Shown here piece after piece: positions 9,852 through 63,752 of a stretch of 64,000 bases of DNA (position 1 is the stretch's first letter; each line of letters begins with the position of its first letter). The stretch is from Callorhinchus milii. Its lineage: Eukaryota. Made by a program: the position numbers and the translations under genes. The notes beneath the pieces are model-generated. The model did no database searches and had not been told where the DNA came from. It saw only the letters and a program-made list of their open reading frames with translations. The stretch covers positions 9,734,001-9,798,000 of the forward strand of contig NW_024704749.1 in assembly GCF_018977255.1 (NCBI RefSeq), written 5' to 3'.

Positions 9852-10260
9852 GGCGGCCCCGGCGAAGAGCGGCCGTCCCCCTTGGCAACCGGCCCCGGAA
9901 GGGACGCTCGCGCCGCGCCACAGCAACTGCCACATCCGGGGGACTCGGGGCGGGGGGGGGCCGCCGTTCAGGCGAGCACAGACTTCTGGGAGTTGTCGTG
10001 CGCTTCCGCTTGGGCGGGCGGAGAGCAACGGGCATTGGGAGGGGGTGGGGGGGGCGAGAACTACACGTCCCACAGTGCTTCGCGCCCAACCCAACCCGCC
10101 CGCCTACCCGTCAGGCTCTGCGGTGGCGCCTGACCGTTGCACGAAAGGCGGGAAAAAAAAAGCCCCGAAGCGTTTGAGGATTTGTCGAGTCGAGTCGGTG
10201 GTGGTCCCGGTGACTCTCGCCACTGAGTCAGGAGGTGGTGGGCACGAACCCGGTGAAGAT
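9852..10260. promoter_or_regulatory. CpG-island promoter of the acylphosphatase gene, with two ZNF143/THAP11-type ACTACAnnTCCCA motifs
   Basis: GC/CpG-rich. ACTACACGTCCCACAGTGC at 10060-10078 (+). Variant ACGACAACTCCCAGAAGTC at about 9981-9999 (-). GGGCGG boxes are also present. Confidence 0.65.
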
Positions 10261-14049: not shown

Positions 14050-14760
14050 AAAACTGTTTGTGGTTGTGATTGATCACTTCCCATTGCCTGAAAACCACCT
14101 GGTGTGGCTGATGAAATGGATTCTGTGCTGAGTTTAAACCTCAGGAGAGGTTTGATACTGAGCAGCTACTCTGAGTCTCTGCTGGCAAATTCCTGGAGGA
14201 CGGAAGCGAGGGATCCAACCCCAGTCTCCCAAGTGTTTACCGGGAACGGCTCTGCCTTTTTCCTGCGGGAAAACTATCTGCAGAAAATACAGAAAATATT
14301 GTTTTTCAACCTATGTTTCCATGTTGTTTCAGCCTCGACACAGAATGAGTTTCAGGTCAATGAGTGTCGTCGATTCGTTGGACGCACTGACTTTAGAAGA
14401 ACACTCAGCTAAAGCGAGTCAGCGTTGTAAGTAAATAAATCCATTTCTTCTAATTTCATCTCTCCAGAACAGGGAAAGGTTTGCTGTGTGACTCCTGTCA
14501 TTGCATTCCCCCAGGACAGAGCGAACCAAAGCAGTGATTTGGTTTGGTCTGCCAGAGCGACATATACCACTTATGTAATTCCAGAGTGTATTAAACGCAG
14601 GGTGGCAAGAGCCAAGGCCAGTGTCACCAGAGTGTGGGTTGGGGGCACTGCCAATCGAAACCGCAGAACTTGCATTGGAAGTACTATCTGGCGTGCTTCC
14701 TACTGCTTGTCCTGCTAAGGCCACCATTACTCCCAGGTGGTTTCACTTCCAACTGGGTTC
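14050..14760. promoter_or_regulatory. Putative immune-type promoter/enhancer of the FIIND-CARD gene
   Basis: TGTGGT (RUNX) next to CACTTCC (Ets/PU.1) at about 14058-14080. GGCAAATTCC (NF-kB-like) at about 14183. Perfect Ets-IRF composite GGAAGTGAAACC on the minus strand at 14739-14750. These are short motifs, so chance matches are possible. Confidence 0.35.
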
Positions 14761-24753: not shown

Positions 24754-27700
24754 TTAAGAAAATCTGTAGCCAATTAGAAAACCTGAAATTATACCAAAAA
24801 TTATACAAACCACATGAAGAAACCACATTCCTTCAGTTCTACGTGTTGCAGAGAAGCTCCCTGGCTGTACAGTTGTTAAACCAAATTGTCTTATACAGTT
24901 ATTACATAATTTGTACGAGTAGTTAAATTCCAAGTTCTGCACAAAGTCAGAATTATTTTTTAGCAATGCTTTATACAGTTCATCTTCTGCATCTTCTCCC
25001 TTATTCATTACTAGTTGAAGCATGGCTTTATTTTGTTGAATTTCTACATTATGAGTGACAATTTCGGACTCTTCAGATTTAGTGATAACATTTGTATCTC
25101 GTAAATGCAACAGGATAGGTTGAATTGTTTTGAGACAACAAATTATTTCCTTTTTGTGTCTATGAACAAAGTCTACACATCTTTTCAACTTCTTAAACAT
25201 ATCTGAAAGAAAAGCACAATGGTTAGAGAACTGTAAATTATATTGTTTATAATGACTGCTGCTGTTTTAAAAGGATAAAAAGAAGCGTTTTAAACTAGTT
25301 CCAGATACCCATATGTGTCAAAGGTAACATATTATAATAATCTTTGCATTTGATATCAAGCCTTACCCATTCATCAAGATGTCTTAATGCACTTTACACA
25401 ATTTTTTTTGCAAAGTGCGGTGAATCTGTATTGGAAGGAAATATGGCAGCCAATTTGTACACAGCATTGCATTCTAATGAAATAGAATGAACAGAAAATA
25501 CAGATTTCTTTCCCCAAACTATTATTTTCTTTAAATGGTTATGCATGTTTATTTTATATCTGAGTTTAGGTACATTAGCACTGACCTGGTCGTAACAATA
25601 TTTCCCACAACACATTGAGCTTGCTTCTTTCAGTCAAACACAGCTTAATGCTATATTTCGACTCCTGGATATAAACCTCATGGAATGGTTGCTGTTGTTT
25701 ATACCTGAAGTAGCTGAATTTTATATCCTATAATAACAAGAATTTGAGAGAGTATAATGCACAGGAACATGTGTTCAATGAAGGTACAGTCGGTGTAGCA
25801 ATAACATGGCAATTATCTGTAGAAAACCGATAAACTGACTTTACAATGACAATTGTTTTAATAAAATAATGAAAATAATTATTTCCTTATAGTTTTGTAT
25901 TTGAATCAAGATTTTTTTTAATTGTTTCAAGGATCTATTCATTTTGAAGAATCTATCAATAGTAAATAAAAACTTATCACAATAAATTCTGATCTGTCAA
26001 TACGTTATATGCCTGAGTGACCAATTTTATTTGGAGGATTGTTGACCCAAGACGCTTACCAGTGGTTTTATAGCTACATTTGAAAAGGATGTCAGCCTAT
26101 ACTTCTTGCCATAGTAAACTGATGTTATTTGTGGAGGCTTTTGAATTTTCAGGGACCTTATTTCTTTTTCCTGCAAGTCAACTGCCTGAAAAGAGTTAGA
26201 AAAAGATAACTTTTGTTTCCTTATATGATTATATTTTAAAGCAAAATACAAAAAAAACACCACAATAAGTAATCTGCACCTAAATAGTTCTCAGATGCTC
26301 TATTCTAATTATCACTGACACTGACAGAAAAGCAACATTCATATTAATTAATTACATATTAATTAGATTCACATTCATATTCATTATTGGTCTGGCAAGA
26401 ACCACTGAAATCAGGGAGAATTAGGTTGGAGGGGATAGCAATGGTAGGGAGTGGTAAAACTTAGGGTTTGAAGATCTTGGTCTTTCTGTTGGGTTATTGG
26501 AAGCCGGTAGAGGCTGGCGAGGGTGCGTATGAAGTGTGCAAAAATTCCTGCTTATTTTTAGATGGATAACCGAAAGTGATTATTAATTATTTCTATTAGT
26601 TTGACAACTATAAACATTAAGGTTTTGTAGCAAAATCCACAAATATTTTCAAGTACAGTACAACGTCTCATTGTTACTGAAGTTTCATTTAAATGCACAA
26701 GCTATGTATTAACTTTGAAATATTTAACTTTCCATAGTTAAATCACACCTATCACTCCGCCTCGCCCCCTCCTTAGTCTCCTTCAAGTCCCGCCTCAAAA
26801 CCCTCCTCTTCGACCATGCCACCAGCCACCCCACCCTTTCCCCTCCCCTCCCTTCTCCCCCCCTGACCCCAGCTCGGGTCTGAAATGCTGTACACTGTCC
26901 AGTGCCTTGGGACATTCTCCTGATGTGAAAGACGCTATATAAATGTAATCTTATTGTTGTTGTTAAAAAATAATATAAAAATTGAATATTTTCAGTTACC
27001 TGTATTAATGAGCCATCATTTGGTAACACATAGACATGAAGAATTGAACAATCAGCTCGAAATGTTTGATATATCATTATGACAGCATGAATAGCCACCT
27101 GATGGACCTGACCAAGGATGACACCCATCAAGGTCAACGGTTGATTTCTTTGCACGACATGAGATAAATGGATTTCTGATGGATTTTCCAATACTAAGGT
27201 ATCATCTCTGAGGCACACAATACAATATCTCGCAGAATGTATTGCTTCCCCTGCACCTAAGAATATTCAAGTTTTATCAATTGCATCAATAAGGTATATT
27301 ACACCACATTCACAGTAAAATAAGTCACTTCACTTTGGAGCCTGAGGCTGCACCAGTACATATCAGGTGTATGGATGGCAATTAAGGCTCTTAAAGATTG
27401 TAATGTATCAAGGCCAGAAATGTAGTGCAATGCTTAATAATTGACTTCCCTAATAGAACTATTACTACTTGAAATATTTACATCCCATAATCAAGGTAAG
27501 GCTATCAAACTGGATTATAATTTATACAATTAATAGTCACAGGAAAGTGCAACCTGATCAGATACTTAATATCTGAATTCAAAGCTTTGAAATTTTCTGG
27601 GCTCATGCAACAATAGCAAGTTAGTTCTTTGATCAAACATGCATTATAAGGCATTGGGTGGTTGTGGCACTCTTTTGGAAAAGCAGCAAAGCAAAAATAA

Positions 27701-28890
27701 CAAATGGATAATCTTTGCTTTAATATAGTGCTTATAATGCTAAAACATTTCAAATTGCTTCACTGAGATTTGCTGTCAAGTGCAGTAATTGTTGGCAAAC
27801 GTGGCAGCCAATGTGCATACAGCATAATAATAGGCAAAATTTGGAAAACACCATAAAAGACCAAACAAAGCCTTTAGAAAGTCGTACTTCCTCTCATCAA
27901 CTGATTGTAATGCCCTTCTGGCTTAGTTAGTAACTCTTGTCTCTAGGTGATGAGGCTCTTGGTTCAAGCCCCCCGTCGAAAGCTCATGGATCTAGATTGA
28001 CACTACAGCGGTGCATGTGTGGGGGGTGGGGAGCACTGTATTTTTGAAGATAGTACCCGTTGCATCAATGGTTAAACTAAGCTCTGCCTGTTCAGGTGGT
28101 TATTAAAGATCCCATAACACTATTGTAAAATAATGTCCTGCCCAACATTCTTCCATTTAAATTAGTCATTCACTTCATGACTGTGGGACTCGAGGCAAGA
28201 CTACTGCGTTTTCCTACAAATAGTCATGATTTTGATAGCAATTCCCTGTGAAGCACTGGAGACATTTTTACCTTTTACTAATGTCAAACTAACGAAGTAA
28301 TATACAGCATGAGAAAACAGACCACCGCATGTAATAAACAATCAGAGAAATATTAAACATATACAACTTTACAAGATACCTGATTCACAAATGAAATGAG
28401 GAAGATGAACAGCAGCAATATCACCATAACTAACACGAATGTTGAACAATGGTCCTCCGATTATCCAACATTCTCTTTGCACATCAGAAATATAGTCATC
28501 CCAGGAGTTATACTCGTAAAAGATTCTAGCATTGGATTTCGATTCCCATCTCAGTCCTGTTTCAGCACATTCATAATTGCCTTTCTCTGGTAAGGTAATA
28601 CTTTCAAAGAATATTAAAAATGTTAATATGGGCACTGATTTTAAGTAAATAGAATCAAAATTCATACACAATACTTCTTATGATATTTGCAATTCCTGCC
28701 ATATTTTGTCCCATTTACAACAACTTGCATTTACATAGTGCTCTTCAAAAAGGTAACATCTCAGAGTATCGGTTACAAACTACAATGAATGGAGCTAAGA
28801 TTGCACAAATTTTACTTTCAGAACTTACCAGAATTTCCCATTTGCATCTTCTGGAATAGTCGGCTTAACAATGATCCACTTTAGTTTATC
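24754..28890 (-). CDS. FIIND#2-CARD-hydrophobic tail module of gene B
   Basis: GNYECAETGLRW...GGPLFNI...VHLPHFIC; LHVYVLPND; KPPQI; LWEILLRP. CARD DFVHRHKKEII...LYKALLKNNSDFVQNL. Tail MWFLHVVCIIFGIISGFLIGYRFS*. Exon sizes 62/221/257/126/142 parallel gene A (62/215/254/120/142). Confidence 0.9.
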
Positions 28891-31800
28891 CTGGAAACGA
28901 TGAAAATAATGTATGAAAGAATTCCAGCGTTAACAATGTATAAAGTTGAAAGTTTAAACACGGTGTAATTGTGTCACCTTTCTAATCTTGGGTATTCTAC
29001 AGGGACAGTGTTCCTTTTCAAAGTAACAGACTACATCTGTAATGCCTCTGCACACTGCTGTTGGAAATAGATACAATACAGTAAGCAATCAGACTATTCC
29101 CCCAAGAAAGATGCGCCTCATTCTGCTTCAACACATTAGCTGGATACATAGTGACCTTGGCTGAAGACGAGGAGTTCAAGAATCTTGCCTTTAATGGGGA
29201 TGCAAATGAGCAGTGTACTGTGGCAATAGCAGATGTAAGATATCATCCCCTCAATAAAAAGGGTCAAGGCAACAGTCAACAAGGAGCTGAAGTACCTAAA
29301 AACAATGGTGAAAGTCTCCAACGACGACAATATTGGTTGCCCGACATGCAAAGAAGCATTTAGCACAATCAGAGCCATTGAAAGAAATGGAAGAAGCAGC
29401 TAAGTATCTGGATAAGATACAACCACTAACTGTCCCTAACTGCAATATAAGAAAAACAGTGAAGGCTGCTCTTTTAAAGCAACAAATATTAAGGGTTTAC
29501 ATAATGAAATATCTTTCATGCACTGCTAAAGCAAAATAGTAAAATGTTACTGAATGAATTACCAGGAGCTTCAAGAAACTGCATTTGTACACAGATTTCA
29601 GGTCCCAGCGTAGTGCACTGCTGACCGGTTTTCACCGCTGAAATAAAGTAAAAGACATTTCACTAAAAAAATCAGAGTTGTGATAAGAGAAAGAAAAAAC
29701 CTGGAAATACAGTTGAGTTTGTAATGGTATTATATAATAATAATAAATCTTGCATTTGATATATTCTTCTAACTGCAAAACGTTAGCAGTTCCAATCTAG
29801 TCCAAGACTAAATGAGATCTACAAACACACTATATAGATGTATATCGTTTCTTTAGGACCGAGACACCACTAACCAGAGAGGATTGATAAATCCTTTATC
29901 CTGTTACACACTGCAAGGGACATCGCATAACAGCTTCTGCAGCTACTGATGCTCCCCTCCTTACAAAATCTGTCTACATTTTTCTTCAATGTGTGGACCC
30001 TGTTCGCACGAAGTATCACGTAGGAGCCTTTATTAATTACGAAGTGACCCAGACTAACAGGCCAGGGTGATTTTGTAATAAAGGAAGTGACCTAGACTTG
30101 TTAGTGTTACCTGAATACGAGGGTGAAGATTTCAAATTTTCTGTTTGTACCGCAATATCTGAGGCCACAATTCCCTGCTTTTGAAGAAGTAATTGATCTG
30201 AAATACAAAAGTAATAATAACTATGAATAACACAGTGCCAAATCATTAAGAGCTCATTCTTGCACTTTCTGGCTTTTTATATTTTTATATTTTAATAGCT
30301 ACTGCCTTAAATTAAGTGGTTGAACAAAAATAAATAAATATACAAGATATTTACCTAAATCAATAAAAGATTGTATATTGTCTGTTTCTGTAGCAGAATC
30401 AAGCAGAAATGCCCTGAATTCCTCTGGTGTATATTTACCTGAAAGATAAAAGCAACATCAATTATAAAGTACGTTGAAAAAGCATTTCTATCACCATCAA
30501 ACAGAGAAAACAATAAAGTAGAGTGGATCAATTGGTAGATCTCTCACCTCTGAGTCAATTCTCACAATTATGGGATTCAAGCCCCACATCATGACATAGA
30601 CAAAGTCTAAATTGAGATTCTAGTGCAGTGCTGGGGATGTATTGCATTGTTGGAAGTCCTGTCCTTTAGATGAGAAGTTGAACCAAGGCCCCAACTGTCT
30701 ATTCAAGTGGATGTTAAAGATCCCAATTTCCAACAGAAAGAGGTGGGCTGGGTTGCAAAGGAGCTAAGGGAAATGAATTAATGGCTTTATCGGTAATTAA
30801 AGATGGCTTTATCGGCGATGATAACTTATGAGATGGTGAGGCCCTGGTAATCACCAGATCAAGGAGGTGACCCTGGAAACACATCCCTCCTCCACCTTGC
30901 TAGAAAGGCATAAAGTAAATGGCTGATCAAAATGAATATATACAATATTTATTTAAATCAGCAAAATATTGTGTATATGTTTCTGTAGTGGTATCAGACA
31001 GAAATGCCCTTGGGGTTTTTTTTTACCTGAAATATAAAGTCAACACCGATTATAAACCACCCTTACTGGCAACTTGTTCCAGTCACTAATTACCTGCTGA
31101 TGATGTTTAGCACACCACATGAGCTATTAGTGTGATGCTTGTCTCCTTAAAGGACTATCCTGCACTCTGCTTTTACAGAGTTTTGACACAATCTATATAG
31201 GCCTCTAAGCATTTAAAATACTAATATACAGGCTTACATTAATGAAAAAGATTTTAAATGTACCTGGGTAAGGGGCTGAATAATGTAAAAATGTGACATT
31301 TAGTACTGACAATACACTGATGAGATTTTTAGACAAGTCTTTCAGGCCGACAAATTATTTTCAATAACAGCTAGAAGATAATTTGTTGCTGGTGCAGAAC
31401 AATTGCTGTGTTTATCTACATAACATTATACAGGATTTCTGTGTTTTGGTGTGGGAGGGGGGCAGAGTCTGAGTGAGGGGGAGCTCTGTAAAGAACGGAG
31501 TGCAGTCAGAGGGGTGGAAAGGGAGAAAGGAGACTGGAAGGAATGCTCGGGAACTCTGCTCTGGAAACTGGTAGAGACTCAAGACCTTTCGAACTGTAGC
31601 TGTGAAAAGAGCCGAAACAACATATTGACTTGTAACAGTCATTCTCTTTCTTAATAGCACTTGCATCAGCGAAGCGTGGTTAAATCTACAATCTTTAATT
31701 GCTCCGAGATGCTACCCGCATGAAGCAGACTATATTATATATATATACAGCAAGTTGTTGCTGTATCTCTGTGGGTAACTGGACTCTGTTAATTACAATT

Positions 31801-34800
31801 ACAACAACATCTGAATTAGACTGTCGCTGCGATTTCTTTTTTAAGAAGATTCTCAATCCTGTAGCATTAATATTATCCATGCAGGTGCCTGAGCTGAGCA
31901 AGACAGTTGGATACAACTCGTCCATTCTCAGGGGACAGAATTTGTGACACATTCATGTACAGATAGTAAATTACATCCCAATTTCCAATACCCCTAAATA
32001 GTTCTTGGACTTGAAGCAAATTAAGAGACCAGCGTAGTCACACATTTCAACATAAATGTACACAACATTTACCTAAAGCAGTGTGAAAAGATTCTATGCT
32101 GTCCATTTCTGTAGTAGAATCTAACAGGAGTGTTCTATATTCCTCCAGAGTTGCTTTATCTAAAATATAAAAAAACATCAGTTACAAAGCATACTGAAAA
32201 AGTATGAGTTTCAATCTCTCAAACCAATTCCATTGTTGCTAAATCAGTTGTAGTTTGTGTGTAGAGGAGCTGGGGGGAACGGCAAGGTGGGTATTGGAGA
32301 AATTCTTCTCATATCACTGCTGAAACAGATATAGATTTAATGAATAATTTTACTTAGTTGCGAAGTTGGAAATTTTAATCTTTCTGTTTCTTTACCCATT
32401 TTTTTTCCCAAGAGCTTGATTATCTGAAATGTAAAGGAATACCATGAAGAGAACTGACGGTTCAATGACATTGAAACAAAACAATGTTAAGATAAAACAA
32501 AAGTTAAAACAAAATAGTTTGTATCCATATATAAGTGAGAAACAAGCATGACCCTTCTCATGGCGTATTGAATGAAAAAGTTTGAAATGTTAGGTGATTG
32601 AGAATGAAAATTTTAATCTTTCTACTCTTTCACCTATGTGTTCTCCGAGAACTTCATTATCTGAAATGTAAAGATACTGGCATTTAGGGATAATAACACA
32701 ACAACAACTTCCATTTATATAGCACCCTTCATGCGGGTTAGAGTCTCAGAGTGCTTAATAGAAGAGACGGAAGATGTTTTTCAGACCCTTAAACCTTTTG
32801 TTATCAATGTTGAATCATTCAGTCCATATATTTGGCCAATTATGTTGTTAAACATGAAGCATTATGTGAGCTACCGTTCAACAAATATTTAAGACTGTTA
32901 ATATTCCTTAATTATAATTATGGTGAACATATTTATAGAAATAACTTATTTTGGGAAATGCACATAAGAGGTAGGAAATAAGGTAGGAGACATTGGAAAA
33001 GGACGGAGGAGGTGGAGGGGAAGGCATTGATATCCTCCATCCAGTACCAACCCTCATAACAGTCTAATACTGGATCTGGACTCCCCCTCTCATCCAGAAC
33101 TTCCACAGTTCAACCATTTCTGAGGTCTGCCCACACCTCAACAAAGACCTATGATCTTAATAACCCCATTCATTGAGGTCCAGATTGTTTAAAAGACTCA
33201 TCAAGGTGTTAAAAAAGTGCCCTTTGTCTTTGAAACAATATCTCTGACTATCTTAGTTCTCAACACATTTGTATCAGAATGTTTAGAAGACGATGCCTTT
33301 TTTAAAAAAATTCCATGAAGTGGCTTGACAGCTTTTGATTAAAGAACATAAAATGTTAAGTTCAAGAATAAATAAATTATCTAATTGGATATTATTCAGT
33401 GTTTTTCAGTTTTAGATATGATGCTAAAAAAAGAATAGACGTGTGTACATGTAGACACTGAACAACTTTTACCTGAATCAGTTTGAAATGGAGTTTCTTC
33501 CGTTTGTGTACCTATATAATTGAACGGAGCTCTGCCTTCCCCAAAAGCTTGTTTGTCTGAAATACAAAGTCAACCCATTTAGGAAATATGACCTAATTGA
33601 GAGATCCTCATGTGAAAGATCACTGGTGTAAGCAATCAATGCGTGGTTATAATATTGAAATAGAACAAAATAGATATTTCTAAAAGAAAAAATAAACCTT
33701 TTTCTGAATCAAGATGTTGAGATTCTGTTGTCTCTGTCTGTATACCGATATCACATAACACGGTACCTTGATCTCCAAGAGTTTTTATAACTGAAATACA
33801 AAGGCAAAAATATTTTTAAATAATTGCACTAAAATACCAAATCTTACTTAAAATGTCATACGAAAAATCTTTGCTAAAGCCTTTTTTCTCTTGGGGGGAA
33901 AAGTCAAAGGACCCAAAGTTTATTTGCATTCCCCAAGCTCAAAGACCAATGCCAGAGGGGCAGAACAAGAATAAAAGTACAGCTCTTTTACAGCGTCTCA
34001 GGTCTATGCTTACATATCTATAATTTAGCTGGACATTTGCAGCTAACAGTAACAACTTCAGTCGGAATTCAATGGCCACTAAAACATACACTATAAAATG
34101 AATACTGAATACAAAAAATGAATACAAAAGAATTAATAAAATAAATTCAGGAATGAAAGAGAAGGCAAAATACATCTTCTGAACCTTTACCTTTCTGAAT
34201 AGATAGAAACTGCTCTTGAATGGAATCAGGAATGGTTACTGGTGCTTTTAAGAAAAATACAGATTTGTTAGTTCTATTATAAACATCCAACTTCTTTTTT
34301 TGTGAATTTGAAAATTACAAACTAAATAAAAATTCTGTTCCAGCTGTCTGATTGTGAAGAAAGACCAATGAAGAGGTGGTCTCATCAAGAACTTGATTTG
34401 CATTGCTGTATAGCAATGACTTGGACTTGAATAGATTTTTCCATGTTTCATGGACAAAGATTGCTTCAAATCAATGACATGGATCAATGAGCAGGAACGA
34501 AAGGAGGGGAATTTCTGGGCGCTGACCAAAGGCACGGTCAAATAAATAAGATTTCAGAGGGTTTTGAAGAAAGCAGACGCAAAGTGAAGGGATGAGTTCT
34601 GGAGAATGAGGGCACAGTGACTGAAAGCTTGGTCGCTGATAAACGATAATCATTGTGTTTGATATAGCAGCTCATCACATTGTTGTGGCTAGGGAATTGA
34701 GCAATAGTTCAGGAGTGAGATTTTTGGGGCAGGTAGAGTACAACTGTGAGGAGATTTGAAGATTCGGACAAGGATCATGCATGTACTGAAGGTGCAGAAA

Positions 34801-37800
34801 TTATTTAACGGATATATTTCCAGGTAAAGCATTCACATATAGATATCCCAAATAAAATTAAATATGCATACCTATCTGATGACAAGATCTTTGGTCATCA
34901 ATTGAATCCACTTTTGCATCTTCACAAGGATCGGAAACACCTAAAATATTCTTGGCTTCTAATGAAAACAAAACTAAAGATTTTATTTGTTGTTTGACAT
35001 CAGTTTTTGCAACTTGATATGTGTGAACTCAAGCACTTGACTAGCAGCACAGTGCAGTCAGTGGGTTTATGCCAACAGACTGGCGAATCAAAAGCACATC
35101 AACAAGGGCCTAACCCTAACCCCAAGTAGACATCTAAAGACATTTCAATAAGACACTAACACAATCCTAAACAACTTTCTGTCAATGTATAGGATATAGC
35201 AGCAAGGAGATAAATAAGGCATTATTTAGGGTGGAGCATTCTTAAACATAGTACTAAAATACCTGGTTCTGATATTGCAGTTTCCAGCATTGATTTGACT
35301 TCGGCTAAAACGCTGCTATGTTTACATTCGATTTCTGCATCATGAACAGATTTACTTGTTACCACAATAATCTATAAAGATATTTCCTTTCCCACATACA
35401 AATAATATTTTTCAAGATATTAAATAACTGGATTAAATAGAGATGAAAACGGTTGTAATACTTCAAAAAGAAACTATCCAAAATTAAGGAGGAACCAACT
35501 CTAATTTCATTGTCAGATGTGATTCAAAACCAGACTGCACACCAGAGAAAATTGAACATTTCCTGAGGGCATGTTATAATAATCTTTGCATTTGATATAA
35601 CATTGAAACATCTCAAAGCACTGAATGCAAGGATTATTATATTACCCTTATCTACATGCACTGCCACTTTTAATGACCTGTACACCAATTGTGATTGGAA
35701 TTATTTTGAAAGGTATTATTGTTGGTAATAACCAAGCCTGCATAAAAGATGGACGAATGAAGTTGTTTTCATTATAAGATTACGACATTAAGATTTAGTA
35801 GCAACTGGCTTATATCAGAATGTTTTAGTTAAAGTAAGTACATACAAACAATTCTATAAACAAAAAGTTAGAAACGTACCTGACTGATTATCCATTTCTT
35901 CAAGTATATGTTTGCAAACATCATCTTCATCTGAAATACATTTAAGATGTAAAATGGTCATATCATGTCCCTGAATTGCATTAGGTACGTATTCCTCTCT
36001 ACTCAGTTACCAAGATATTTTCCTATTTATGTTTCCAATATACTTGTATAATTCACAAATAGCAATATAGATTATAATGAATGAAAAAAATTAAAATATA
36101 AATTTACTAAAATGTTTATGTCATAGATATTTGCTCTATATGAAGTATGACATGACTATTCTCATTATAAACATATACAGATTTGGCACAATGACATCTG
36201 GCAAAAATGGTGCACATGTCTTTTCCTTCCCCCAAAAAAAGTTTAGCCAAAAGTTGAATTTAAGAAAATAAGTAAATTTATACCTGATTGATCATGAGGC
36301 AATCCCAAATTTTCCAGTAACATTCTAACTTGGCATAAAAGAACTCTATATTTGCAGATACGCTTTGAACCTGGAGGAATACAAGAGTTCAAATATTTAC
36401 ATGAAATTACAAAGCAGGATGATTGACATAAAACATGATTTTGGTTCATAGCTAAGAAGAGATGACCAAATAAGTGACTCACAGTTTAAAGCGGTCATCA
36501 TGCACACACCACTAACTATACCTGATGGATGGGATGATACAAGGAAATTTGATTTCACAGATGGAGGTTTGCAAACATCTTCTCCATCTGAAATATAGTT
36601 ACAGTGTTTCACTTTACAGTATATTCCGTGAAGAGCTTTGAGACATCTCAACGACATGATAGTGCACTATATCAAACTCAAGGATTTTTATTATTATTAT
36701 TCTTTAGCTTTTCAATCTATTTCAACCAAAGCAACATACATTACAATTTGTTGCATCGATTAAATATGTTCAACATTTTTTGCAATTACTTAAATGTAGT
36801 GAAGAATATTATTTGAAGATGAGTATCCCTGAAGTAAAACACTAAAATTATACCTAGTTGATAGTGAGATGGTCGTACTTTTTCCAGTAGTGTTATGACT
36901 TCACATAATTCAGCTCTATGCTTACAAACTTCTGATTCTGAAAAAATGCAAGAATTATTATCATTAGATAAAAACAATTTTGCAATTCTGATCTTCACTA
37001 ATATTTTTTCTCACATTACAAATAAAACTATGATAATTCTTCACAACAGATATCTCTTCTAAGGACCTCTTCAGATTCTTTTCCCCAGTCCCACAGACAG
37101 CTGGAACATAGAAAGTGCTAAGTTCTATCCACATCAACATGTTAGACTGACTGTATATGCCACCTGAAAAGGATGGGGTGTCAAAATTCTGTACCATAAT
37201 CTCCTATCAGAGGGAAGCTTCATCCAGGAACAATGCCCTCTGCATAACTCAGAGATCAAGAAGTACAAAAAGAAAATAAACCTTACCTCCATTGGAATCT
37301 ATAGTTTCATGTTGTATAGCTTGTGTAGCAGCTGCCATATCTGTTTCTTCCTCAAAAGGTATCACATCTAAAAATGTATTTAAATGTTAAACACATTTAA
37401 CAAATACAGTACCGCAGTACCAATACTGTATACTATAACATATCAGGCTATGTTTCTGAAAGTTTGTTAACTGAAAGAAGAAATAAGTGATGAAGGTTAT
37501 AGCAATTAATTATTTAACTATAATCACATTAGTTTACAAAAGACAAATTGACTGCCCAATTCTCCGTAGATAGCAAAGAATATGATAGTGGTACTATGTG
37601 GGAAGAAACATTGGTAATCAATTTTCCAAGCATAATGCCAAAATTGTTGAATGTTATTGAATGTTCATAAATTTAATTACAAACAATACAGGATACATGA
37701 TAGTATATAAGGGTTTCAAATTCTTTTTTTATTGATTTTGTCTGAAGATTGCAATCCTGAAAATAGGAGCAATAGAATGCAGTGAATATTGATAAAAGTA

Positions 37801-40800
37801 GCTTACAAATATGAAATGGTTGTTAAATTAGTCTTGGATCAATACCCACCATATTCCACTGACCTTAGGGCCAAATAAAAGATTCTAAGATTACTATGCC
37901 ACTCAATAAATGTAACATATAACATTATAGGATATACTCTGCTGCATCTGCCCCTTTCCTATAGTTTACCTGAATGCAATAGTAGTAAACTTCCAGATGC
38001 AACATTTTTTTTAATGTTACAGATATTAATGTTTTACATGAAGTGGGTTAGTTTCATAAGGTCATGTAGTTCTTTGTTTCTTCTTTCAGTGGATAATCTT
38101 CATGTTTTGGATCTCGATAGTTAGTCTTGTCAGACTATTAATTATAATCCTTCAATCCTTCAATAATCAAAGCACTTTATACGATTTTACTGAGAACTAG
38201 AATGACTACATTTGTAGGCGAACGCAGCAATTTGTTGTGCATAGCAACGTCCCACAAACAGCCAAGACCAATGAATAACCAATTTTAATTGGGGCTTGTT
38301 GACTAGAACATTGGGAGAAACTTCCTTCTCTATTCAACTGTGGATGGTGTGAGCAGTTCTGTAAATCCTGTGAAGCATTTTGAGACATCCTCCCAATAAA
38401 AAGCATTTTCAATATTGTTTTATTTACCTGAAAACAATAGTGGTAAACTTGTAGCTGTAAAAAAGAAAATTTAACGTTAAAGACCATCATTTGTTTCCTG
38501 AAGCAAGTTAGTTCCACAAGGACTAACAGTTCTGTTATTTCACTCAGTTTAACTGTGGATTGTGCTAAAGCTCTGTTTGACCCCATCCTCACCAAATAGA
38601 CAAGTAGACTGGGTTAATTGCCATGTTTTTATTTATATCATCTAACTCAGCAAAGACTGAATCTTAGCAAAGACTGAACCAAGATTGAATCTAGGACCTT
38701 TCGTTGATTGGCTCCAAACAGTGCATTCATTCACCCAGTAACTCCACAATATAGTTTAATATGTTCTATCTTCATTCTCGCTTTCAACCGCCTTAGGGTC
38801 CCTCTGGATTTTAACCTGACAACCTTCTTTCTGCTAAAGTATCAAAAGATTCTGGGGGGCATTATGTAATCATTTACTCCCTTTCCTGTTCTCTCTATTT
38901 AATCTACATTGTTGCAGACGTTGGAGTAGTTGTTTATAGAGAAGGATACATAAAGTAGAAACATGTTCTCTTCACAAACAATGGATTCCTCACCTCGTTG
39001 CGGTTCAAATTCATCTAGCATAAAAAAAGGAAAAAAAATTAGGTATAGCTGTGCAAAAGGCGTTTTATTTGGTTTAAATTATATTTCCAGCACAACCTTA
39101 CATTAGGGAGATCTCTTTCACAGTATGTCATTAACAAAGCCCACTTAAAATTTAGGGTGCAACATTGTAAAAGGTATTTCTTGCTTTATAGTATTGTGTG
39201 AGATCTTTCCGAATAAAAGTATGGTAAGTTTTATAACGTTCATAAATTTAATTACAAATAATCAGAGCAGCAAAGTTCCTCCTGCCTTACGTAAATGGAG
39301 TAAAACAATAAAAATAGATATTTTTCAGGTAAAATAAAAAACATTGGATTTCTGTTCAGTACACACATGTTGAAAAAGGGTATAAACTCTCTCTTCGGAG
39401 TAATACTTTAAGAACCACATAAACCTCAACACATTTCTGGCTTGACCTGGCGTTATAATACAATGCATATAGTAATTTTTCTACCATTTCTCTATGCATT
39501 TTTGTAAATACACAGTTCAAGTTGAACGCAAGCCAAAGGGAATGGTTACACTTCTCATTGTTTATGGATTGAGAGAACAAACTAAAAAAAATGAAACATA
39601 CCTTCAGAAGAATGGTAAGGTTGATGAGGTATTGGCTGTATATTAGATGACATACTTCTAATTTCCTGTAAAGCTTCCACATCTGAAATTTTTAAAATAC
39701 TGTAGTAAGCAAATGTGCAGTATAAGCTAGAACTAAAAGATTCTATTTTCTGAAAGTGTAGAAATGTAAGCAGATATAGTTCCAGAATCACCATAGGTCT
39801 CAAATGGAAAAATCGAATAAAAAAACAATATATAGCATATATTACCAGAAAAGGTTCTATGCACATTGCTATCTGCAAAAAAANTCAGAAATAATTTTTA
39901 GAAATGTTATTTTTTAAATAGCGTGAACAATTGCATATCAAAAGGATTCTGCTCTGCAATATACAGGCTGCAAAAGTGCTAACTAAGTTTTTTGCCTCAA
40001 TTTTTACTAAGGAGGAGACAGGTAATTTATTTGATTATATTGGAAGGGGAACTCGAGAGTGTTGCAGAGATAAGTTGTAACATCATTCGCATCACTACCA
40101 GCATAGTTGCCCAAAAGCTGTACATAGGTAAATAAGTCTCAGGGACCAGATAAATTGCATCCCAGGATCCTTAAGGATCTAATGGAAGAAGTTGCAGGAA
40201 CTCTGGCACAAATCTTCCAGAAATCACTGAATACCGGAGAGGTGCCTGGAGACTGGAGAAAGGCAGATGTTACTCCTATTCTTTTTTAAAAACAAAAGGC
40301 AGCAAGAATGACCCCAAAAACTACAATCCAGTGCGTTTGACCATTGTGATGAAGCTATGCAGACCCTTATTGATGATACGATCATGAAGCATCTGGACAG
40401 AAACAAAATCATAAAAGATAGCCAATATGGGTTCATGAGGGGGAGATCTTGCCAATCTAATTCACTGTTTTTTTTTGACAGTGAGCTTGATAAGGTTAAG
40501 ACAGTGGATGTTGTATATTTAGATTTCAGTGAACTCAATATTCAGAACTTGAATGTACAATCTGATAAAGACACAAGAGTTCTGAGCGGCATGCACAATG
40601 ACAACGGCACATGAAATCTGATTGGGTGTCTTATATTGTCCATTGCAATTGGATTTCATAGATGGAAATCTTATACATCATAATCTCTAAATTACCAGAT
40701 TTTATTTTTGCAAATTAGTGAAATAACTGTTCAAAATAATTTCTGCTTATTTGTAGCAAGCAAAAGTAGTAATTACCTGAAACGGAAGAACGAATTCCTG

Positions 40801-43800
40801 CAAAATATGAATAAATTATAAATATTAGCATTCTCAATCTAATTTATGTCTCAGACATGGACAATATATTGATCAGAGTATTTGAGATGTTATTTTTCCC
40901 CTTGCTTGTGTATCTTGTAATTATCAACTGGTGTACCACATACTGTTGACAATTTTCTGCAATAATAAAATGTTGCTAAAAGGTCAGAGCTTGGGAATGT
41001 GCTTGTCAGTTTGTTTTTGACAAAAAACAAATGAAACAAAAAAGGAAATAAAATTGTCAAGCTAACACTACCTGAGGGGCTTGAGGGGATAGCACGGAGA
41101 AAGGGCAGTAGGCTGAGGAAGCATTCAAAGAATAAGGAAGACTGCTTGGTCAGGCGATCAGAACATGGGTCAGCAGACGTAGCATGCTGCTGCCTAAAAG
41201 CTTTTAAAGCAGTGTGGCCTCTTTAGCTATTTTTCATGTTGGCATTTAACCAACAGTATTAGGAGTATGTGGAATCAGGAAGAATGAGACATACATACAA
41301 CAAACATCCACCCAGCCCTAACCCGTAAGATGGTTTTGTCTTCAAATTTAAGATGACACAAAAATGCGGAAGATGCTTGAATTCAGTTTTAATTTGGAGG
41401 CCGGTTCTCTTTAAAGATTGTGGAAAACCATCTTCCAGATTAAGAATGTATTTCAGTTTTTCACAATTCTGGACCATCCTAAATTTTAAGTATGACAGAA
41501 TAAGATTATTTAGTACAGCATATCCGGCCAATAGTATTTGAAATATACCTGATTTTGAGTGTAAAAAATCATCCGTTACATTGTTACGCTCCATGCTCCT
41601 AGCTGCTTCCACTTCTGAAATATTTAACAAGTACAATACTGATAAATTTAAGAATATAAAGATGACAACACTGTACTAACATTCAATCCATAAAGTATGT
41701 CAAATTCAAGTAATTTAGAATCCTCTCCAAAATCTGCAATTGTACCCACATGGTAACACTTCCAATTAAATTACTAAAATGCTGTGCAAAAATATACCTG
41801 CTCCAGTTGTCCCATCACTTAAGACTCACAATCTGGAGAACAGAAAATCAAATCCTAGGTGGCAGCCATCCACCATTGCGCTCAATATGACCCTGTAAAG
41901 CAGTTAGCAATAGAAGGGATATAAACACTAAATCTGGAGGATCTCAAACATACACACCGGGCTTTGGCATTGTCTTTTCATCCTCATCATCCTCAACGAT
42001 GGCATCTACAGTACAAAGGCAAAAACAAAATCTCCAAGATTAGGTGCCTTATAGGATCATCATCATTATGCCCTTGACATATTTCAGGAATAAAATCAGA
42101 TTGACAAATACAAAAAACTAGCCTGATTTGACAACTTACTGAAATTAGGTAGGGTACACATTCAATGAAGCTAAGTCTGCCTGAAGAACTGCCAATGTTG
42201 TACATTGGATAAACACTGAGGCCGAATGTGCAATCTTCACACATATTTTCATTGCTAGCGAGTTCTATATTAATCAACTCTATTTTTAATCATGAAATGA
42301 ATGCATCTTTTTCTCCACAGGTTACATTCAACAATCAAGGTGAAATAAAGTGCAAGCCAAAGCCCTAATGGGTACGGTGATCCTAGCTGGACAAGTATCG
42401 AGAAGCTTGCTAGACAATGTTCTCAAGGCAAGCAATGCCGTTTTTACTGCTGGTTAAATTCCAGTAGTATCCCATTGCACACTCTGGGCGCCCATTATGG
42501 TTTACATATTTAACCTATACGTACCTTTGGTACAAACTGAGTCGCTGCTTTCTGATGATGAAAGTTCCACTTCATCATTATCCACTTCATCATTATCTTT
42601 CCAATATAAATGAACATCATCAAAATAAGATTAATTAGTTCAACTTTCCAAACCCATTCACGTTGTTCTGCAACTTTTCTAACTGAAAACATAGGAAGGT
42701 TTGTTTTCTTTTAGGTTAATAAAATAAGTTTGGGATAAGAAGCACTTCAAGGCATACCTACTAAAGCAGCCGCAGCAGAAACTTTACCATCTTCTGGGAA
42801 AACAAAAAACAATATTCATTTAAGCTATTGATCAGTAATTGTCATCGCCCCCCCCAGGGTCTATGTAATAATAATCCTTGCATTTGATATAGTGCCTTAT
42901 CATGTCTTCGAGACGTCTAAAACTGCTTCATAGATATTCTGTAAAGTGAAGTGACTGTATATTTTATGGACGAAATACAGCAGCCAATTGCCATGAAGAT
43001 TTGTATGAGTAAGGTTGTTATTTTTTCAATACTCACTGGATCTTAACAAGATATTCCATAAAGCATCATTCTTTTTTCTCTTTGTCAGTTTTAACTCAAA
43101 TAAATCATTTTCTTTTTTAATAAATACTTCATAAAATGGCTGTTTTAAATCCATATCAATGTAATGGAATTTCATTTCCTGTAATAAATATAAAATTATT
43201 ATTTTTCTTAAAATGCAACAGTATAATGAACTAAAAATAAACACAATTTCCACAAATACAAACAGAAGTACTTCTCCATTTCCTACTTGATTTACTATCA
43301 AAACTTCTCTCTTTCGCTGCAATATATAAATTCTTCCAATATGGCAAGTAAGCGTGGTTTGAATAATCAATGTTCATTTGCTTTGTGTATTCAGAAAACA
43401 TAGGTCCCTCCAGTAACAGTCTGTTCCTTTATAAATGTTGCTTTATAACTGTTGACTTAAATTTGTATTTTTTATATAATGTGTCTCATTCAATGGTTTA
43501 ACATACAGGTGACATATTAAATAAGATTTCAGTTAGATGAAAAGTACAACAGGAGTGAATTTATCATCTAATTATGACTATAAAATAAGATGAATTTGTC
43601 CCATTTTTTGTTCCAAAGCTTTAATATTAATTAATAATAGATTCGTTCTTAATAATATGGCATTAACACTTTCTGAAGTTAACTGAATTTTAGCAGTACA
43701 TACATATTTCTGCTTACTTCTGGTATGATCTGAATATCTGAAGAGCTAATTAGAGAATACTTTCTACCAAAGTAGAGGGACCTTGTGGGTGAGGGACGTT

Positions 43801-46800
43801 TAATCATAACCGATTCGGATTCCTGCAAATGAACTGCCTGCAAAATAGTGGAGAAGCACAACTTTGTTTTGCAATGCACTCTCATATCATAAGGTAGTCA
43901 CAGAATAAAAATTGAATTAAAACAAAATTACCTGCATTATTGAAAGGTCATTTGGTATAACATAGACATGAAGAATTACAGCAGCTGGGTTTGCAGTTTG
44001 ATAAATCATTGTCAGACTATAAAATGAAAACCACGAGTTTCTGTCAACAATAACTCCCATAAGCGAAAAAGTTGGCATTTGTAATTCAGCATGAGCTTGA
44101 TGAATTTCTGATGGCTTCAGTACACTATAGGAGCTTTCTTTAACATGGAAGATGGCAAAGGTATAATCTATTTTTCTATCTGTGCCTGCAGAAGAAAAAA
44201 AACATGTTTATGCATAGTTGTAGTTTTCTATAAACGAAACACGTCATAGGAGAGAACCCTGAAAATTTCAACCACAGGAAAAAAAATTAATTGATGTTTC
44301 CCTGGAGGATTGTTCGTTATGTATCAACCTTCGGAACAAAAAAGGCCATACAAGCATTTTAAAGTCATTATCTGAAATATTGTCTCTGTGATTTTATCCT
44401 CTCAAAATGTCAGCAAATGTTGGCACCCAATTCTCTGTGGATGGAAATGTGAAATGTTTTCCTTTGGGTGGGAACAATGTGTGTAAACATACTTAGTTTA
44501 TTATTTATTATTATTATTAATGTATCAGGCTATTTTTCAACAAGGAACAGTGACAGTTTTTCTGTAATATCAAACAATACAATTGAACTATGTATACACT
44601 ATCAACTTAATGGGAACTACTTCCCTAAAAAACATTGTAATACCAATTGGAACAATAATTTAAACACAGTATAATGCATGTGTACAGTCAAGCGCAGAAA
44701 TAAAGAAAATATTTAAAGATACCTTTTAAACAAATAAAATGAGGAAGATGAATAGCTGTAATAACACTGTCTTCTGCCAAAATATTAAACAATGGACCTG
44801 AAAATTCTGCTTTCTGTATCACAATAATAGGAGCATATTCACGCCACGAGCAATATCTGTAATCAATAGTTGTTGATTTTGTGATTTCCCATCTTAGTCC
44901 AGTTACAGCACATTCATAATTGCCTTCATCTGGGAGGGAAATCCTGCACAGAAATGTGAATATGAGAATGTAATATAGAACAAAAAGACATAAAATGATT
45001 GGGTTTCTAATCATACTTTACCTAAAAAATAACTCATGATCAGAGACATCAGGCTCTATCACTGTCCAGTTTGTTTTTTCCTACAGAGGAACAAAGAAAG
45101 GGAATATATCAGATTTTGGAGTAAATCAGATTGTTCCTTAGTATCCTATTTTTACTACATGAAACACATTTCTAGCCAATTACATTTAAATCAAAACTGT
45201 TACCTCTTCATTCTCATACATGTTAGAAATAGTCATCTTTTGGTGACTAAACTCACAAAGTATCCTCATCATTCCTGTGCGAAAAGATAAATAGGAACAG
45301 GTTTATTTTTTCTCTCTACTTTTTCATAAGAATTATTTATTACAATTTGTAGAATTTTGCAGCTACAGTATTTGGATTCACCAAGACTCATCAGAATCGA
45401 GTACAGTGGGAGTTACTGCAGTAAGTGCACTACAGTTACATTAATAGCATAACTGGATTATATGACACATTACGCAATTTGGTCAACTCCCAAGTAGTCC
45501 AATGTTACAACAGTTTCCCTACTATGTCAGCATGACAGATTTAGTAATCCAAGTGGTGTAATTAACAAAGCTGTGAGTTTGTTTAGAAACATGATGACAT
45601 ACATCCATTTGTCCACATTAACCAGATATAGACACATCATCTACTGTAATTCCAGTATCATATCTATTTGAACTCATATAATTCACTCATTGTGTATTTG
45701 TTCAATATACATTTAGAAATAGCTAATCTGGCTATAAAGGAAAAGGATGCCAGTTCCTGTAAGAGACTTTTCCAGGTGAAATTATATAACATTCTTCTTT
45801 CTGCGCTTTACAATAATACTTTCAACTATAATAATAATCCTTGCATTTGATATAGCGCCATATCACATTTTCGAGACGTCTCAAAGTGCTTCACAGAATA
45901 TACTGTAAAGTGAATTGACTGCGTTTTTAATTTACGTTATATGGGAACACTCCTTCCAAGGCAAGGTTTCCCGATAAATTATCAAAAAAGATTGTTTAAA
46001 TAAACAGATATTTAAAAAAACATAGAAACTTGAGAAAAAGGTTGTTACTTCTAATTTATATATTTTTAAAAAAAGTGGCATTAGCTATTTAAAACAATGA
46101 AGGCAGATAACGTACTTCTGTGCCTCTCAGTAGTTTCTGAAGTCACAGGTTGAAATTTAGCAGGCGGGCTCCAATCTAAAATATATTTAAAAAGATATAT
46201 TTTAATATTATCACAATTAAATATCAGAAAATAACAATAAGAATGTAGTATTAAAATTCTACAAATAGTGTTACCTGCTGATGTACCTTTGGGGAATTCG
46301 CCTGCAACTGAAACAAAAAAGATTGTGAAAATCTGTTCACAATTAACTAGTGTTAAAATACACAAATATTTGAAATTTTGACACGTTAAAAATACCTGTG
46401 ATTTTAGCTTAAGACTATCGAGTCCACTCAAAGTCTTCCAAAAGAAAAGCCAAGAAAAGCAGCAAATCTGAAGATTGGGAGAGTTTTAGAAACCAGCAAA
46501 AAAAAACTAAAAAACTCATTAAGAGCGAGAAAAAGGAGTATGGGGGTAAGCTATCGAGGAACATTAAGTCTGATTGTAAAAGTTTTTACAAATATATTAA
46601 GAGGAATAGTCGAGTGAGGGTAAATGTAGGTCCACTTCAGTCAGAGACGGGAGAAGTTGTAATGGGGGATAAGGATATGGCAGTGTCCCTAAATGGGTAC
46701 TTTGCATCTGTCGTCACCCTAGAAGACAAAACAAGTCTGCCAACAATAGAGATGCACCAAGTGGATAAGGACAGGGAGCAACTTAGGGAAATTTTCACTC

Positions 46801-57786: not shown

Positions 57787-63752
<5,966 letters not shown>

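What the first reader, a model, noticed from the sequence alone, without database searches (positions are those of the whole stretch)
29563..42793. Linker built from about 22 duplicated, symmetric micro-exons in at least three families
Seen: all exons are phase 1/1 and skippable in frame. Family I (30111, 30355, 32073, 33473, 33698) shares a CTTTGTATTTCAG-type acceptor and a D-x-x-T/I-Q/E-T-E/D pattern. Family II (35263, 35880, 36284, 36522, 36854) shares a V/I/E-C-K-H/Y/P motif. Family III alternates 21-27 nt and 66-81 nt exons (DVEA/EVEA). Inference: an exon-accordion disordered region that could supply a combinatorial, fast-evolving library of protease baits or binding motifs.
Basis: partly seen in the sequence, partly recalled or inferred. 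Interest (0 to 1): 0.72.

Follow-up and report, generated by a model that had tools for sequence, protein, structure and literature searches.

The report
LC8-motif exon array in CARD8-like gene
In the elephant shark, a run of short, in-frame, partly duplicated exons encodes the long floppy middle of a CARD8-like immune protein, and its last third repeats a short motif, kept in sharks and rays, that likely binds the dimerising hub protein LC8 rather than acting as a shuffled library of protease baits.

Summary
The exons are real. 23 candidate phase-1/1 exons (21-93 nt, minus strand) lie between two FIIND domains of one Callorhinchus milii gene: ubiquitin-like, FIIND1, linker, FIIND2, CARD, predicted membrane tail. 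RNA contigs support 10 of 23, eight of them spliced in order. 15 of 23 have a paralogue, and four dead copies lie among them. Corrections: only 4 of 23 are 27 nt or shorter, Family I duplications are old, and the one exon seen skipped (35263-35334) has lost its ancestral acceptor. It follows a conserved heptad helix, recurs 3-7 times in ray, skate and catshark orthologues, and one copy models in the LC8 groove (0.76, best control 0.53). A CARD8-type protease tripwire fits poorly, because the linker lies after the FIIND with the cleavage site and before one that lacks it. Verdict: new variant of the CARD8/NLRP1 kind with a likely multivalent LC8 zipper; the exon-duplication mechanism is ordinary. 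An earlier scan note covered FIIND2 of this gene; none covered the LC8 motifs.

The parts
49290..49559 (-). First coding exon, ubiquitin-like domain
   Evidence: tblastn of RefSeq model P0010, 100%; Pfam PF00240 E=1.1e-5
43037..44945 (-). FIIND1 (ZU5+UPA) exons at about 44723-44945, 43926-44190, 43697-43849, 43037-43178; keeps the F|S site and the His aligned to NLRP1 H1186
42758..42793 (-). Linker exon a, 36 nt, no paralogue
   Evidence: in RefSeq model P0010
42525..42596 (-). Linker exon b, 72 nt, acidic
   Evidence: P0010
41958..42005 (-). Linker exon c, 48 nt
   Evidence: P0010
41549..41614 (-). Exon d, 66 nt, Family III long
   Evidence: P0010
40777..40797 (-). Exon e, 21 nt
   Evidence: P0010
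39846..39872 (-). Exon f, 27 nt (predicted)
   Evidence: splice sites; only a length match
39602..39682 (-). Exon g, 81 nt, Family III long
   Evidence: exact piece inside a 543-nt RNA-type contig
38994..39014 (-). Exon h, 21 nt (predicted)
38428..38454 (-). Exon i, 27 nt (predicted)
37970..37996 (-). Dead copy of exon i; acceptor reads AT, not AG
37287..37367 (-). Exon j, 81 nt, Family III long (predicted)
   Evidence: z=14.5 with exon g
36854..36937 (-). Exon k, 84 nt, Family II (predicted)
36522..36587 (-). Exon l, 66 nt, Family II (predicted)
36284..36370 (-). Exon m, 87 nt, Family II (predicted)
   Evidence: z=15.4 with exon k
35880..35930 (-). Exon n, 51 nt, Family II; spliced straight to exon p
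   Evidence: loose end in run X1
35263..35334 (-). Exon o, 72 nt, Family II; ancestral acceptor lost, skipped in the one spliced contig that crosses it
34872..34958 (-). Exon p, 87 nt
   Evidence: RNA joints in X1 and X7
34191..34244 (-). Exon q, 54 nt; with the start of r encodes the best-conserved linker stretch, a predicted heptad helix
33698..33790 (-). Exon r, 93 nt, Family I, LC8-type motif CDIGIQTE; orthologous to the ray motif CDKGTQTE
33473..33556 (-). Exon s, 84 nt, Family I, motif YIGTQTE
32637..32693 (-). Decayed Family I fragment, skipped
   Evidence: nhmmer E=0.018; s to t loose end
32349..32444 (-). Decayed Family I copy, skipped
   Evidence: nhmmer E=2.3e-5
32073..32159 (-). 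Exon t, 87 nt, Family I, anchor degenerate (TEM)
30931..31059 (-). Dead Family I copy of exon u: frame broken, donor lost, skipped
   Evidence: nhmmer E=9e-13; t to u joint
30355..30438 (-). Exon u, 84 nt, Family I, anchor degenerate (TET)
30111..30197 (-). Exon v, 87 nt, Family I, motif SDIAVQTE
29563..29637 (-). Exon w, 75 nt, Family I, weak anchor VQM
25587..28600 (-). FIIND2 exons at about 28378-28600, 26999-27254, 26057-26188, 25587-25727; L|T at the F|S site, Cys at the His site
   Evidence: (26999-27254 spliced to 28378-28600)
24754..25206 (-). Last exon: CARD followed by a hydrophobic C-terminal tail (predicted membrane anchor)
   Evidence: Pfam CARD E=9.7e-9; hydropathy 2.4 over 19 residues, tail kept in ray and catsharks

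Best explanation
The exons encode the roughly 470-residue, predicted-disordered linker of one cartilaginous-fish CARD8/NLRP1-like protein (ubiquitin-like domain, FIIND1, linker, FIIND2, CARD, predicted membrane tail), built partly by old tandem duplication of phase-1 exons, and its distal third likely works as a multivalent LC8 (DYNLL) binding site. Shown: exon structure, splicing order of the eight distal exons, paralogy, dead copies, domain order, and motif conservation in rays, skates and a catshark. Predicted: the q/r helix self-associates weakly, and LC8 dimers bind the canonical anchors (three in this species, 3-7 in relatives) and zip two chains in parallel. Inferred: FIIND1 self-cleaves; the N-terminal ubiquitin-like/ZU5 piece is the part removed by the proteasome; the remaining UPA-linker-FIIND2-CARD-tail stays on a membrane, where the LC8 zipper pre-pairs and spaces the CARDs and so sets a signalling threshold. 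Because each Family I exon carries one motif slot and is frame-neutral, exon birth, decay and loss would change valency over evolutionary time, not chiefly by splicing. The proximal exons (a-p) are likely a tolerant spacer.
For: One gene: Narcine model P0002 holds all domains in this order; split models of other species break at different places; RNA chain p-q-r-s-t-u-v-w. Motif register: Q or E at codon 17 of all 6 Family I exons without gaps; codons 13 and 16-19 are among the best-kept columns. Enrichment of [TVI]Q[TV][DE] against shuffles: C. milii 3 vs 0.12 expected (p=0.0006), Narcine 3 vs 0.17, Hemitrygon 3 vs 0.12, Amblyraja 2 vs 0.10, Rhinoraja C-half 5 vs 0.10; 5 of 8 sets tested, the 3 without being models that end before this region. 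Only 2 of 166 other proteins retrieved (mostly FIIND proteins) have two or more such motifs, and one of them is the skate orthologue's C-half. The motifs follow the rules in PMC6607443 and resemble its validated binders: nNOS/53BP1/DLGAP1 GIQ types, BIM CDKSTQTP, FAM83D IDAATQTE. Of 24 peptides compared, only q, r and (with one skate) v match orthologues; the skate model gives one long linker helix, 730-769, just before the first motif, the layout of Swallow and rabies P (PMC12017986 passages). Complex model, LC8 dimer plus two exon-r peptides: score 0.76, best of 3 controls 0.53; the mark was reached by 51 of 78 solved complexes and 2 of 108 mismatched pairs; runs agree in at least 92% of contacts; partner pLDDT at least 54; interface residues 9-19, with the Gln beside the residue equal to LC8 Gly63 (Gly63 as anchor marker from PMC12057147).
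Against: No binding was measured. LC8-peptide complexes are solved textbook pairs, so the model may pass from memory; one control scored 0.53, and peptides were not in the calibration. PMC6607443 states that many anchor-bearing peptides do not bind, and its non-binder list holds similar IQT motifs. Three of six Family I exons here have non-canonical anchors (TEM, TET, VQM), and t/u model as low-confidence helices (pLDDT about 50-64). The search pattern was chosen after seeing the motifs, and orthologues are not independent. No single contig spans FIIND1 to FIIND2, and RefSeq splits the C. milii gene (P0010, P0018). FIIND1's His is Tyr in Narcine, skates and catshark, so its cleavage is uncertain there. 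The signalling role is inferred from domain likeness alone.
Confidence: 0.66

Rival explanations
1. Protease-bait or tripwire library: the linker offers varied cleavage sites; a cut by a pathogen protease activates the CARD, and splicing varies the repertoire.
For: Linker identity of 27-29% against 64-67% in the FIINDs; lineage-specific repeats in skates, stingray and catshark; one skipped exon; two pairs with dN above dS on small counts (g/j 0.64 vs 0.34, l/n 0.92 vs 0.52); CARD8 precedent (PMC10249858 passages). C. milii FIIND2 keeps a Thr at the nucleophile position.
Against: A tripwire needs a self-cleaving FIIND between the cut and the CARD (PMC12575685 passages). FIIND2 has L|T, L|A, L|G or L|S at the F|S site and Cys for His in C. 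milii, Narcine and catshark. Distal exons were spliced in order; t/u and k/m show dN well below dS (0.36 vs 1.01; 0.46 vs 1.95); run X2 shows no exonic difference in 29990-35560.
Confidence: 0.12
2. Neutral spacer: symmetric exons duplicate and die because disorder tolerates it, and the TQT-like words are incidental.
For: Four dead copies and one dying exon; proximal exons match no orthologue; such duplication is common in disordered proteins (PMC3632108 passages). This probably does describe exons a-p.
Against: Motif enrichment and register, conservation of the q/r helix and first motif between a chimaera and rays, and 71% identity of the motif block between Narcine and Amblyraja against 55% for the linker before it.
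Confidence: 0.13
3. Two separate genes, as annotated: a ubiquitin-like/FIIND gene and a FIIND-CARD gene whose N-terminal disordered region is the distal exon set.
For: RefSeq models P0010 and P0018 are separate, and P0010 ends in a terminal exon near 40392; skate and catshark annotations are split too.
Against: The Narcine and Hemitrygon models are fused; split points differ between species; the 270 letters 5' of exon g in an X1 contig equal the summed lengths of exons a-f (a length match only); no start exon was seen inside the array.
Confidence: 0.07

Closest known systems
CARD8 / NLRP1 FIIND-CARD inflammasome sensors (PDB 7jkq, 6x6c, 7crw)
   Same: FIIND (ZU5-UPA) and C-terminal CARD; FIIND1 aligns with rat NLRP1 (E=1.7e-38), human NLRP1 and CARD8 and keeps F|S; a long disordered segment.
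   Different: Two FIINDs; an N-terminal ubiquitin-like domain; the disordered segment lies between the FIINDs, on the C-terminal side of the cleavage site; LC8-type motifs; a hydrophobic tail after the CARD; no NACHT/LRR.
Multivalent LC8 clients: ASCIZ/ATMIN, KANK1 L2, Swallow, 53BP1, Nup159
   Same: Several TQT-type anchors spaced 20-31 residues apart in disorder, mixed strong and weak sites, a self-associating helix just upstream (PMC5963919 and PMC12017986 passages; PMC12803091 abstract).
   Different: No sequence homology was sought or claimed. Here there is one motif slot per duplicated exon, inside an innate-sensor architecture; binding is predicted, not measured.
Disordered regions built from tandem symmetric exons (PMC3632108; titin PEVK and CD44 variable exons, recalled)
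   Same: Runs of same-phase exons, internal duplication, repeated short linear motifs.
   Different: PEVK and CD44 arrays are extensively alternatively spliced (recalled); here only one skip was seen, over a decayed exon.
Other ubiquitin-like/FIIND fusions (lungfish P0148 and P0151, tortoise CARD8-like P0157)
   Same: Ubiquitin-like domain(s) N-terminal to a FIIND.
   Different: A single FIIND, no long linker or LC8 array; whether the fusions share one origin was not tested.

Membership tests
CARD8/NLRP1 FIIND-CARD sensors | FIIND (ZU5+UPA) followed by a C-terminal CARD | tested here: met
   Pfam; PDB sequence matches
CARD8/NLRP1 FIIND-CARD sensors | Self-cleavage site (F|S plus upstream His) in the FIIND next to the CARD | tested here: not met
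   FIIND2 has L|T and Cys; the site is kept only in FIIND1. The role of the His is recalled; the Ser is from PMC11760013 passages
CARD8/NLRP1 FIIND-CARD sensors | Disordered tripwire N-terminal to the cleaving FIIND | tested here: not met
   the linker lies C-terminal to FIIND1; the N-terminus is a ubiquitin-like domain
CARD8/NLRP1 FIIND-CARD sensors | Functional degradation releases a UPA-CARD that activates caspase-1; DPP9 restraint | not testable with these tools
   needs cell assays
Multivalent LC8 clients | Two or more [TVI]-Q-[TV] anchors with favourable -4 and +2 residues and no upstream Pro | tested here: met
   3 in C. milii, 3-7 in orthologues; rules from PMC6607443; LC8Pred itself was not run
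Multivalent LC8 clients | Motifs lie in intrinsic disorder, often beside a self-associating helix | tested here: met
   pLDDT under 50 at 767-926 and helix 730-769 in the skate orthologue; C. milii v/w region under 50, t/u weakly helical
Multivalent LC8 clients | Direct binding in the LC8 groove | tested here: inconclusive
   the model supports it (0.76 vs best control 0.53; mark reached by 51 of 78 solved and 2 of 108 mismatched pairs) but may pass from memory
Alternatively spliced micro-exon arrays | Most exons very short (about 27-30 nt or less; threshold recalled) | tested here: not met
   4 of 23 are 27 nt or shorter; range 21-93
Alternatively spliced micro-exon arrays | Combinatorial skipping in mRNA | tested here: inconclusive
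   one skip, over a decayed exon; the other junctions seen are in order; single contigs at depth 2.8-5.8

The most novel reading that the evidence does not exclude
An LC8-guarding innate sensor: a membrane-anchored CARD whose pairing is set by LC8 occupancy of an exon-encoded motif array, with a built-in ubiquitin-like handle for proteasomal removal of the N-terminal brake. Viral proteins that bind LC8 (several are listed as binders in PMC6607443 Table S4) would shift occupancy and trip it, and exon birth and death would tune each lineage's threshold.
Probability: 0.13. Interest if true: 0.82.

Novelty: new variant of a known kind. Interest (0 to 1): 0.5.

Why it matters
It gives a testable regulatory input (LC8) and an unusual layout (ubiquitin-like domain, two FIINDs, membrane tail) for the FIIND-CARD family in cartilaginous fishes. 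No paper in the held library joins FIIND with DYNLL1, or with a ubiquitin-like domain in fish (four terms required). It also offers a natural series for studying how linear-motif valency evolves: one motif slot per exon, with live, degenerate and dead copies side by side. It corrects an annotation that splits the gene in most species. The exon duplication itself is ordinary.

Tried and rejected
The look-up of sequencing runs listed no holder on record as RNA; runs guessed to be RNA were laid, and their spliced joints show transcript origin. The first lay (26650-46600) was swamped by abundant short repeats: all 15 joints listed involve repeats and 293 more were not shown, so exons a-m could not be checked. 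Run X8 showed no informative piece among the rows listed; X6 showed only unspliced or repeat pieces. A homologue search with the stingray linker region returned only 2 proteins. Two candidate exons were rejected or left out: 41798-41832 (35 nt, stop in phase 1, read) and the truncated 27-nt reading of the 32637 copy (skipped in RNA). A shared origin of Families I and III was considered (E=0.024 and 0.15) and not accepted. A likeness of Family II Cys motifs to a Cys-bearing stretch in Narcine and skates was seen by eye but failed the shuffle test. FoldIndex was near zero for Families I and II (0.03, 0.06), so disorder rests mainly on the models. The regular expressions for the catalytic sites matched nothing; those sites were read from alignments. 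The DNA around exons r/s has one match in the genome, itself. LC8Pred-type matrix scoring was not run. Genomic DNA of other cartilaginous fishes was not available, so exon boundaries in orthologues and cross-species dN/dS are untested. Literature: searches (6 papers; 0; 0; 12 of 18 listed; 10 of 385 listed, none with 'elephant shark') showed nothing on this gene by title or abstract start; the library is open-access only. Supplementary Tables S1 and S3 of PMC6607443 could not be read.
Full report
Context. The window is from Callorhinchus milii: an exon at 44724-44945 is 100% identical to a named C. milii protein. Pfam finds FIIND, UPA-FIIND and CARD pieces on both sides of the finding. Mapping stored proteins back gives a minus-strand gene: ubiquitin-like exon (49290-49559), FIIND1 (43037-44945), the 13-kb array, FIIND2 (25587-28600), and a last exon with a CARD and a hydrophobic tail (24754-25206). 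RefSeq splits it into P0010 and P0018. The Narcine model P0002 carries all domains on one chain, plus a probably spurious integrase piece in front; the Hemitrygon model joins both ZU5 halves through the distal linker; skate and catshark models are split at different points. Among the 150 best of 406 representative hits to the ubiquitin-like/ZU5 half, the three strong full-length hits were cartilaginous fishes.

Observation. I find 23 candidate exons, a to w, all multiples of three, phase 1/1 and open, 21-93 nt long. A uniform rule gives 18 phase-1/1 segments here against 2, 2 and 3 on control strands (rule set after viewing). In RNA-type contigs, run X7 has joints p-q, q-r, r-s and t-u, and loose ends for s-t (8 letters), u-v and v-w; run X1 has p-q and n-p. 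X1 also has a contig whose piece is exactly exon g, with 270 letters 5' of it, the summed length of a-f (a length match only). So 10 of 23 have direct RNA support, 5 more (a-e) are in a RefSeq model, 7 rest on splice sites and paralogy, and 1 (o) was skipped. All are single contigs at depth 2.8-6, which show presence and drop rare forms.

Duplication. 16 of 276 pairs reach z of 6 or more, all inside the families; 15 of 23 exons have a paralogue. A Family I profile finds three further decayed copies (30931-31059, 32349-32444, 32637-32693), all jumped by the RNA joints; a twin of exon i has lost its AG; exon o aligns with its ancestral acceptor changed. Family I copies are old (dS 0.7-2.5 or saturated). 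t/u and k/m show dN well below dS, while g/j and l/n show the reverse on 16-26 codons. DNA run X2 covers all 30 bins of 29990-35560 with three substitutions and one 3-base deletion, all intronic; four DNA runs of one study hold 0.90-0.94 of the words of 35100-45050. This is slow birth and death, with no sign of current copy-number change. Runs of symmetric exons in disordered proteins are a known pattern (PMC3632108, passages).

What Family I encodes. Without gaps, all six exons have Q or E at codon 17: CDIGIQTE (r), YIGTQTE (s), DSTTEMD (t), DSATETD (u), SDIAVQTE (v), EICVQMQ (w). This is the LC8 anchor as defined in PMC6607443 (passages; Table S4 read whole): r, s and v fit; t, u and w have anchors absent from its binder list. 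Orthologues have 3-7 anchors of the broader pattern: Narcine 6, Hemitrygon 5, Amblyraja 3 in the N-half model and more in the C-half, Rhinoraja 7, catshark 4. The strict pattern is enriched over shuffles in 5 of 8 sets (p 0.0002-0.004; the other three models end before the region) and is rare in other FIIND proteins (2 of 166 with two or more, one being an orthologue). Of 24 exon peptides compared with 7 orthologous linkers, only q, r and v match. In the AlphaFold model of the Amblyraja protein the linker is below pLDDT 50 except one helix, 730-769, which is the q/r stretch; it has a heptad of hydrophobic residues (read) and ends a few residues before the first motif. A self-associating helix just upstream of an LC8 site is the Swallow and rabies P layout (PMC12017986, passages); arrays of weak and strong sites occur in ASCIZ (PMC5963919, passages) and KANK1 (PMC12803091, abstract). 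C. milii has LC8 genes. A catfish LC8 that differs from one of them at 3 of 89 residues was modelled as a dimer with two exon-r peptides: score 0.76, best of 3 controls 0.53; the mark was reached by 51 of 78 solved complexes and 2 of 108 mismatched pairs; runs agree in at least 92% of contacts; partner pLDDT at least 54; interface residues 9-19. Such complexes are solved, so this shows likeness, not binding, and the paper warns that many anchors do not bind.

Mechanism. CARD8 and NLRP1 are activated when a fragment N-terminal to a self-cleaved FIIND is degraded and UPA-CARD is freed (PMC12575685 and PMC10249858, passages). Here FIIND1 keeps F|S and the His aligned to NLRP1 H1186 (Tyr in several sharks and rays), whereas FIIND2 has L|T and Cys, and A, G or S in relatives. 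The linker therefore travels with the CARD. A cut in it would expose an end on a chain still joined to the CARD, so it is a poor tripwire unless FIIND2 cleaves after all. The better reading (0.66): an LC8 zipper that pairs and stiffens two chains of a membrane-tethered CARD fragment, with the ubiquitin-like/ZU5 piece as the degradable part. Exon structure, splicing order and motif conservation are shown; LC8 binding is predicted; cleavage, membrane location and signalling are inferred. Rivals: protease bait 0.12, neutral spacer 0.13 (probably true of exons a-p), two genes 0.07.

Comparison and novelty. It works like a multivalent LC8 client grafted into a CARD8-like protein. It fails two defining tests of CARD8/NLRP1 (cleavage site in the FIIND next to the CARD, N-terminal tripwire), so it is a variant, not a plain member. 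It fails the size test for a micro-exon array. Ubiquitin-like/FIIND fusions also occur in lungfish and tortoises. Five searches of an open-access library found no paper on this gene or on FIIND with LC8; subscription papers were not searched. An earlier scan note on FIIND2 of this gene agrees with my alignments; a word search of the scan found nothing on the LC8 motifs. Recalled, not from a call: the role of H1186, micro-exon size limits, titin PEVK and CD44 splicing, and the CR1 label. Interest 0.5: real and mechanistically suggestive, with an ordinary evolutionary mechanism and no experiment yet.

Noticed in passing
window 49290-49559 (-): N-terminal ubiquitin-like domain without a C-terminal Gly-Gly, fused ahead of FIIND1 in all cartilaginous-fish orthologues seen; lungfish (up to three domains) and tortoise FIIND proteins have similar fusions. 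Could be a built-in proteasome handle or a decoy for ubiquitin-directed enzymes.
   Followed up: partly
window 24754-24830 (-): Hydrophobic tail after the CARD, kept in Narcine and two catsharks; likely a tail anchor.
   Followed up: partly
window about 40392 (-): RefSeq model P0010 ends in a terminal exon whose acceptor lies in what looks like a CR1-type LINE remnant (read by eye); if real, it gives a CARD-less short isoform.
   Followed up: partly
window 14345-23582 (+): Convergent paralogue, an ordinary CARD8-like FIIND-CARD gene (P0143) with F|S and His intact, tail to tail with the gene studied.
   Followed up: partly
window 34233: An X1 contig differs by one base in exon q, giving Phe for Ile; rays have Phe nearby in this stretch. 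One contig at depth 3.1, may be an error.
   Followed up: no
FIIND1 of orthologues, alignment A1: The His aligned to NLRP1 H1186 is Tyr in Narcine, skates and small-spotted catshark but His in C. milii and bamboo shark, while F|S is kept in all.
   Followed up: partly
P0001, P0006, P0012, P0013, P0016: Stingray, skates and catshark each have their own near-perfect 13-40 residue repeats in the linker, suggesting more recent lineage-specific duplications than in C. milii; exon boundaries unknown.
   Followed up: no
window 35880-36937 (-): Family II exons carry one or two Cys each (VCKH-type starts); batoid linkers also have a Cys-bearing stretch at the same place, but similarity was not significant.
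   Followed up: partly
G000:C11:17323241-17323456: A fourth, distant FIIND ZU5 exon elsewhere in the genome (E=1.1e-4).
   Followed up: no
window 9546-10103 (-), 53882-54241 (-), 62932-63156 (+): Neighbouring ORFs that by eye resemble acylphosphatase, a PXMP2/Mpv17-type exon and a DNA polymerase epsilon exon (labels recalled, not tested).
   Followed up: no
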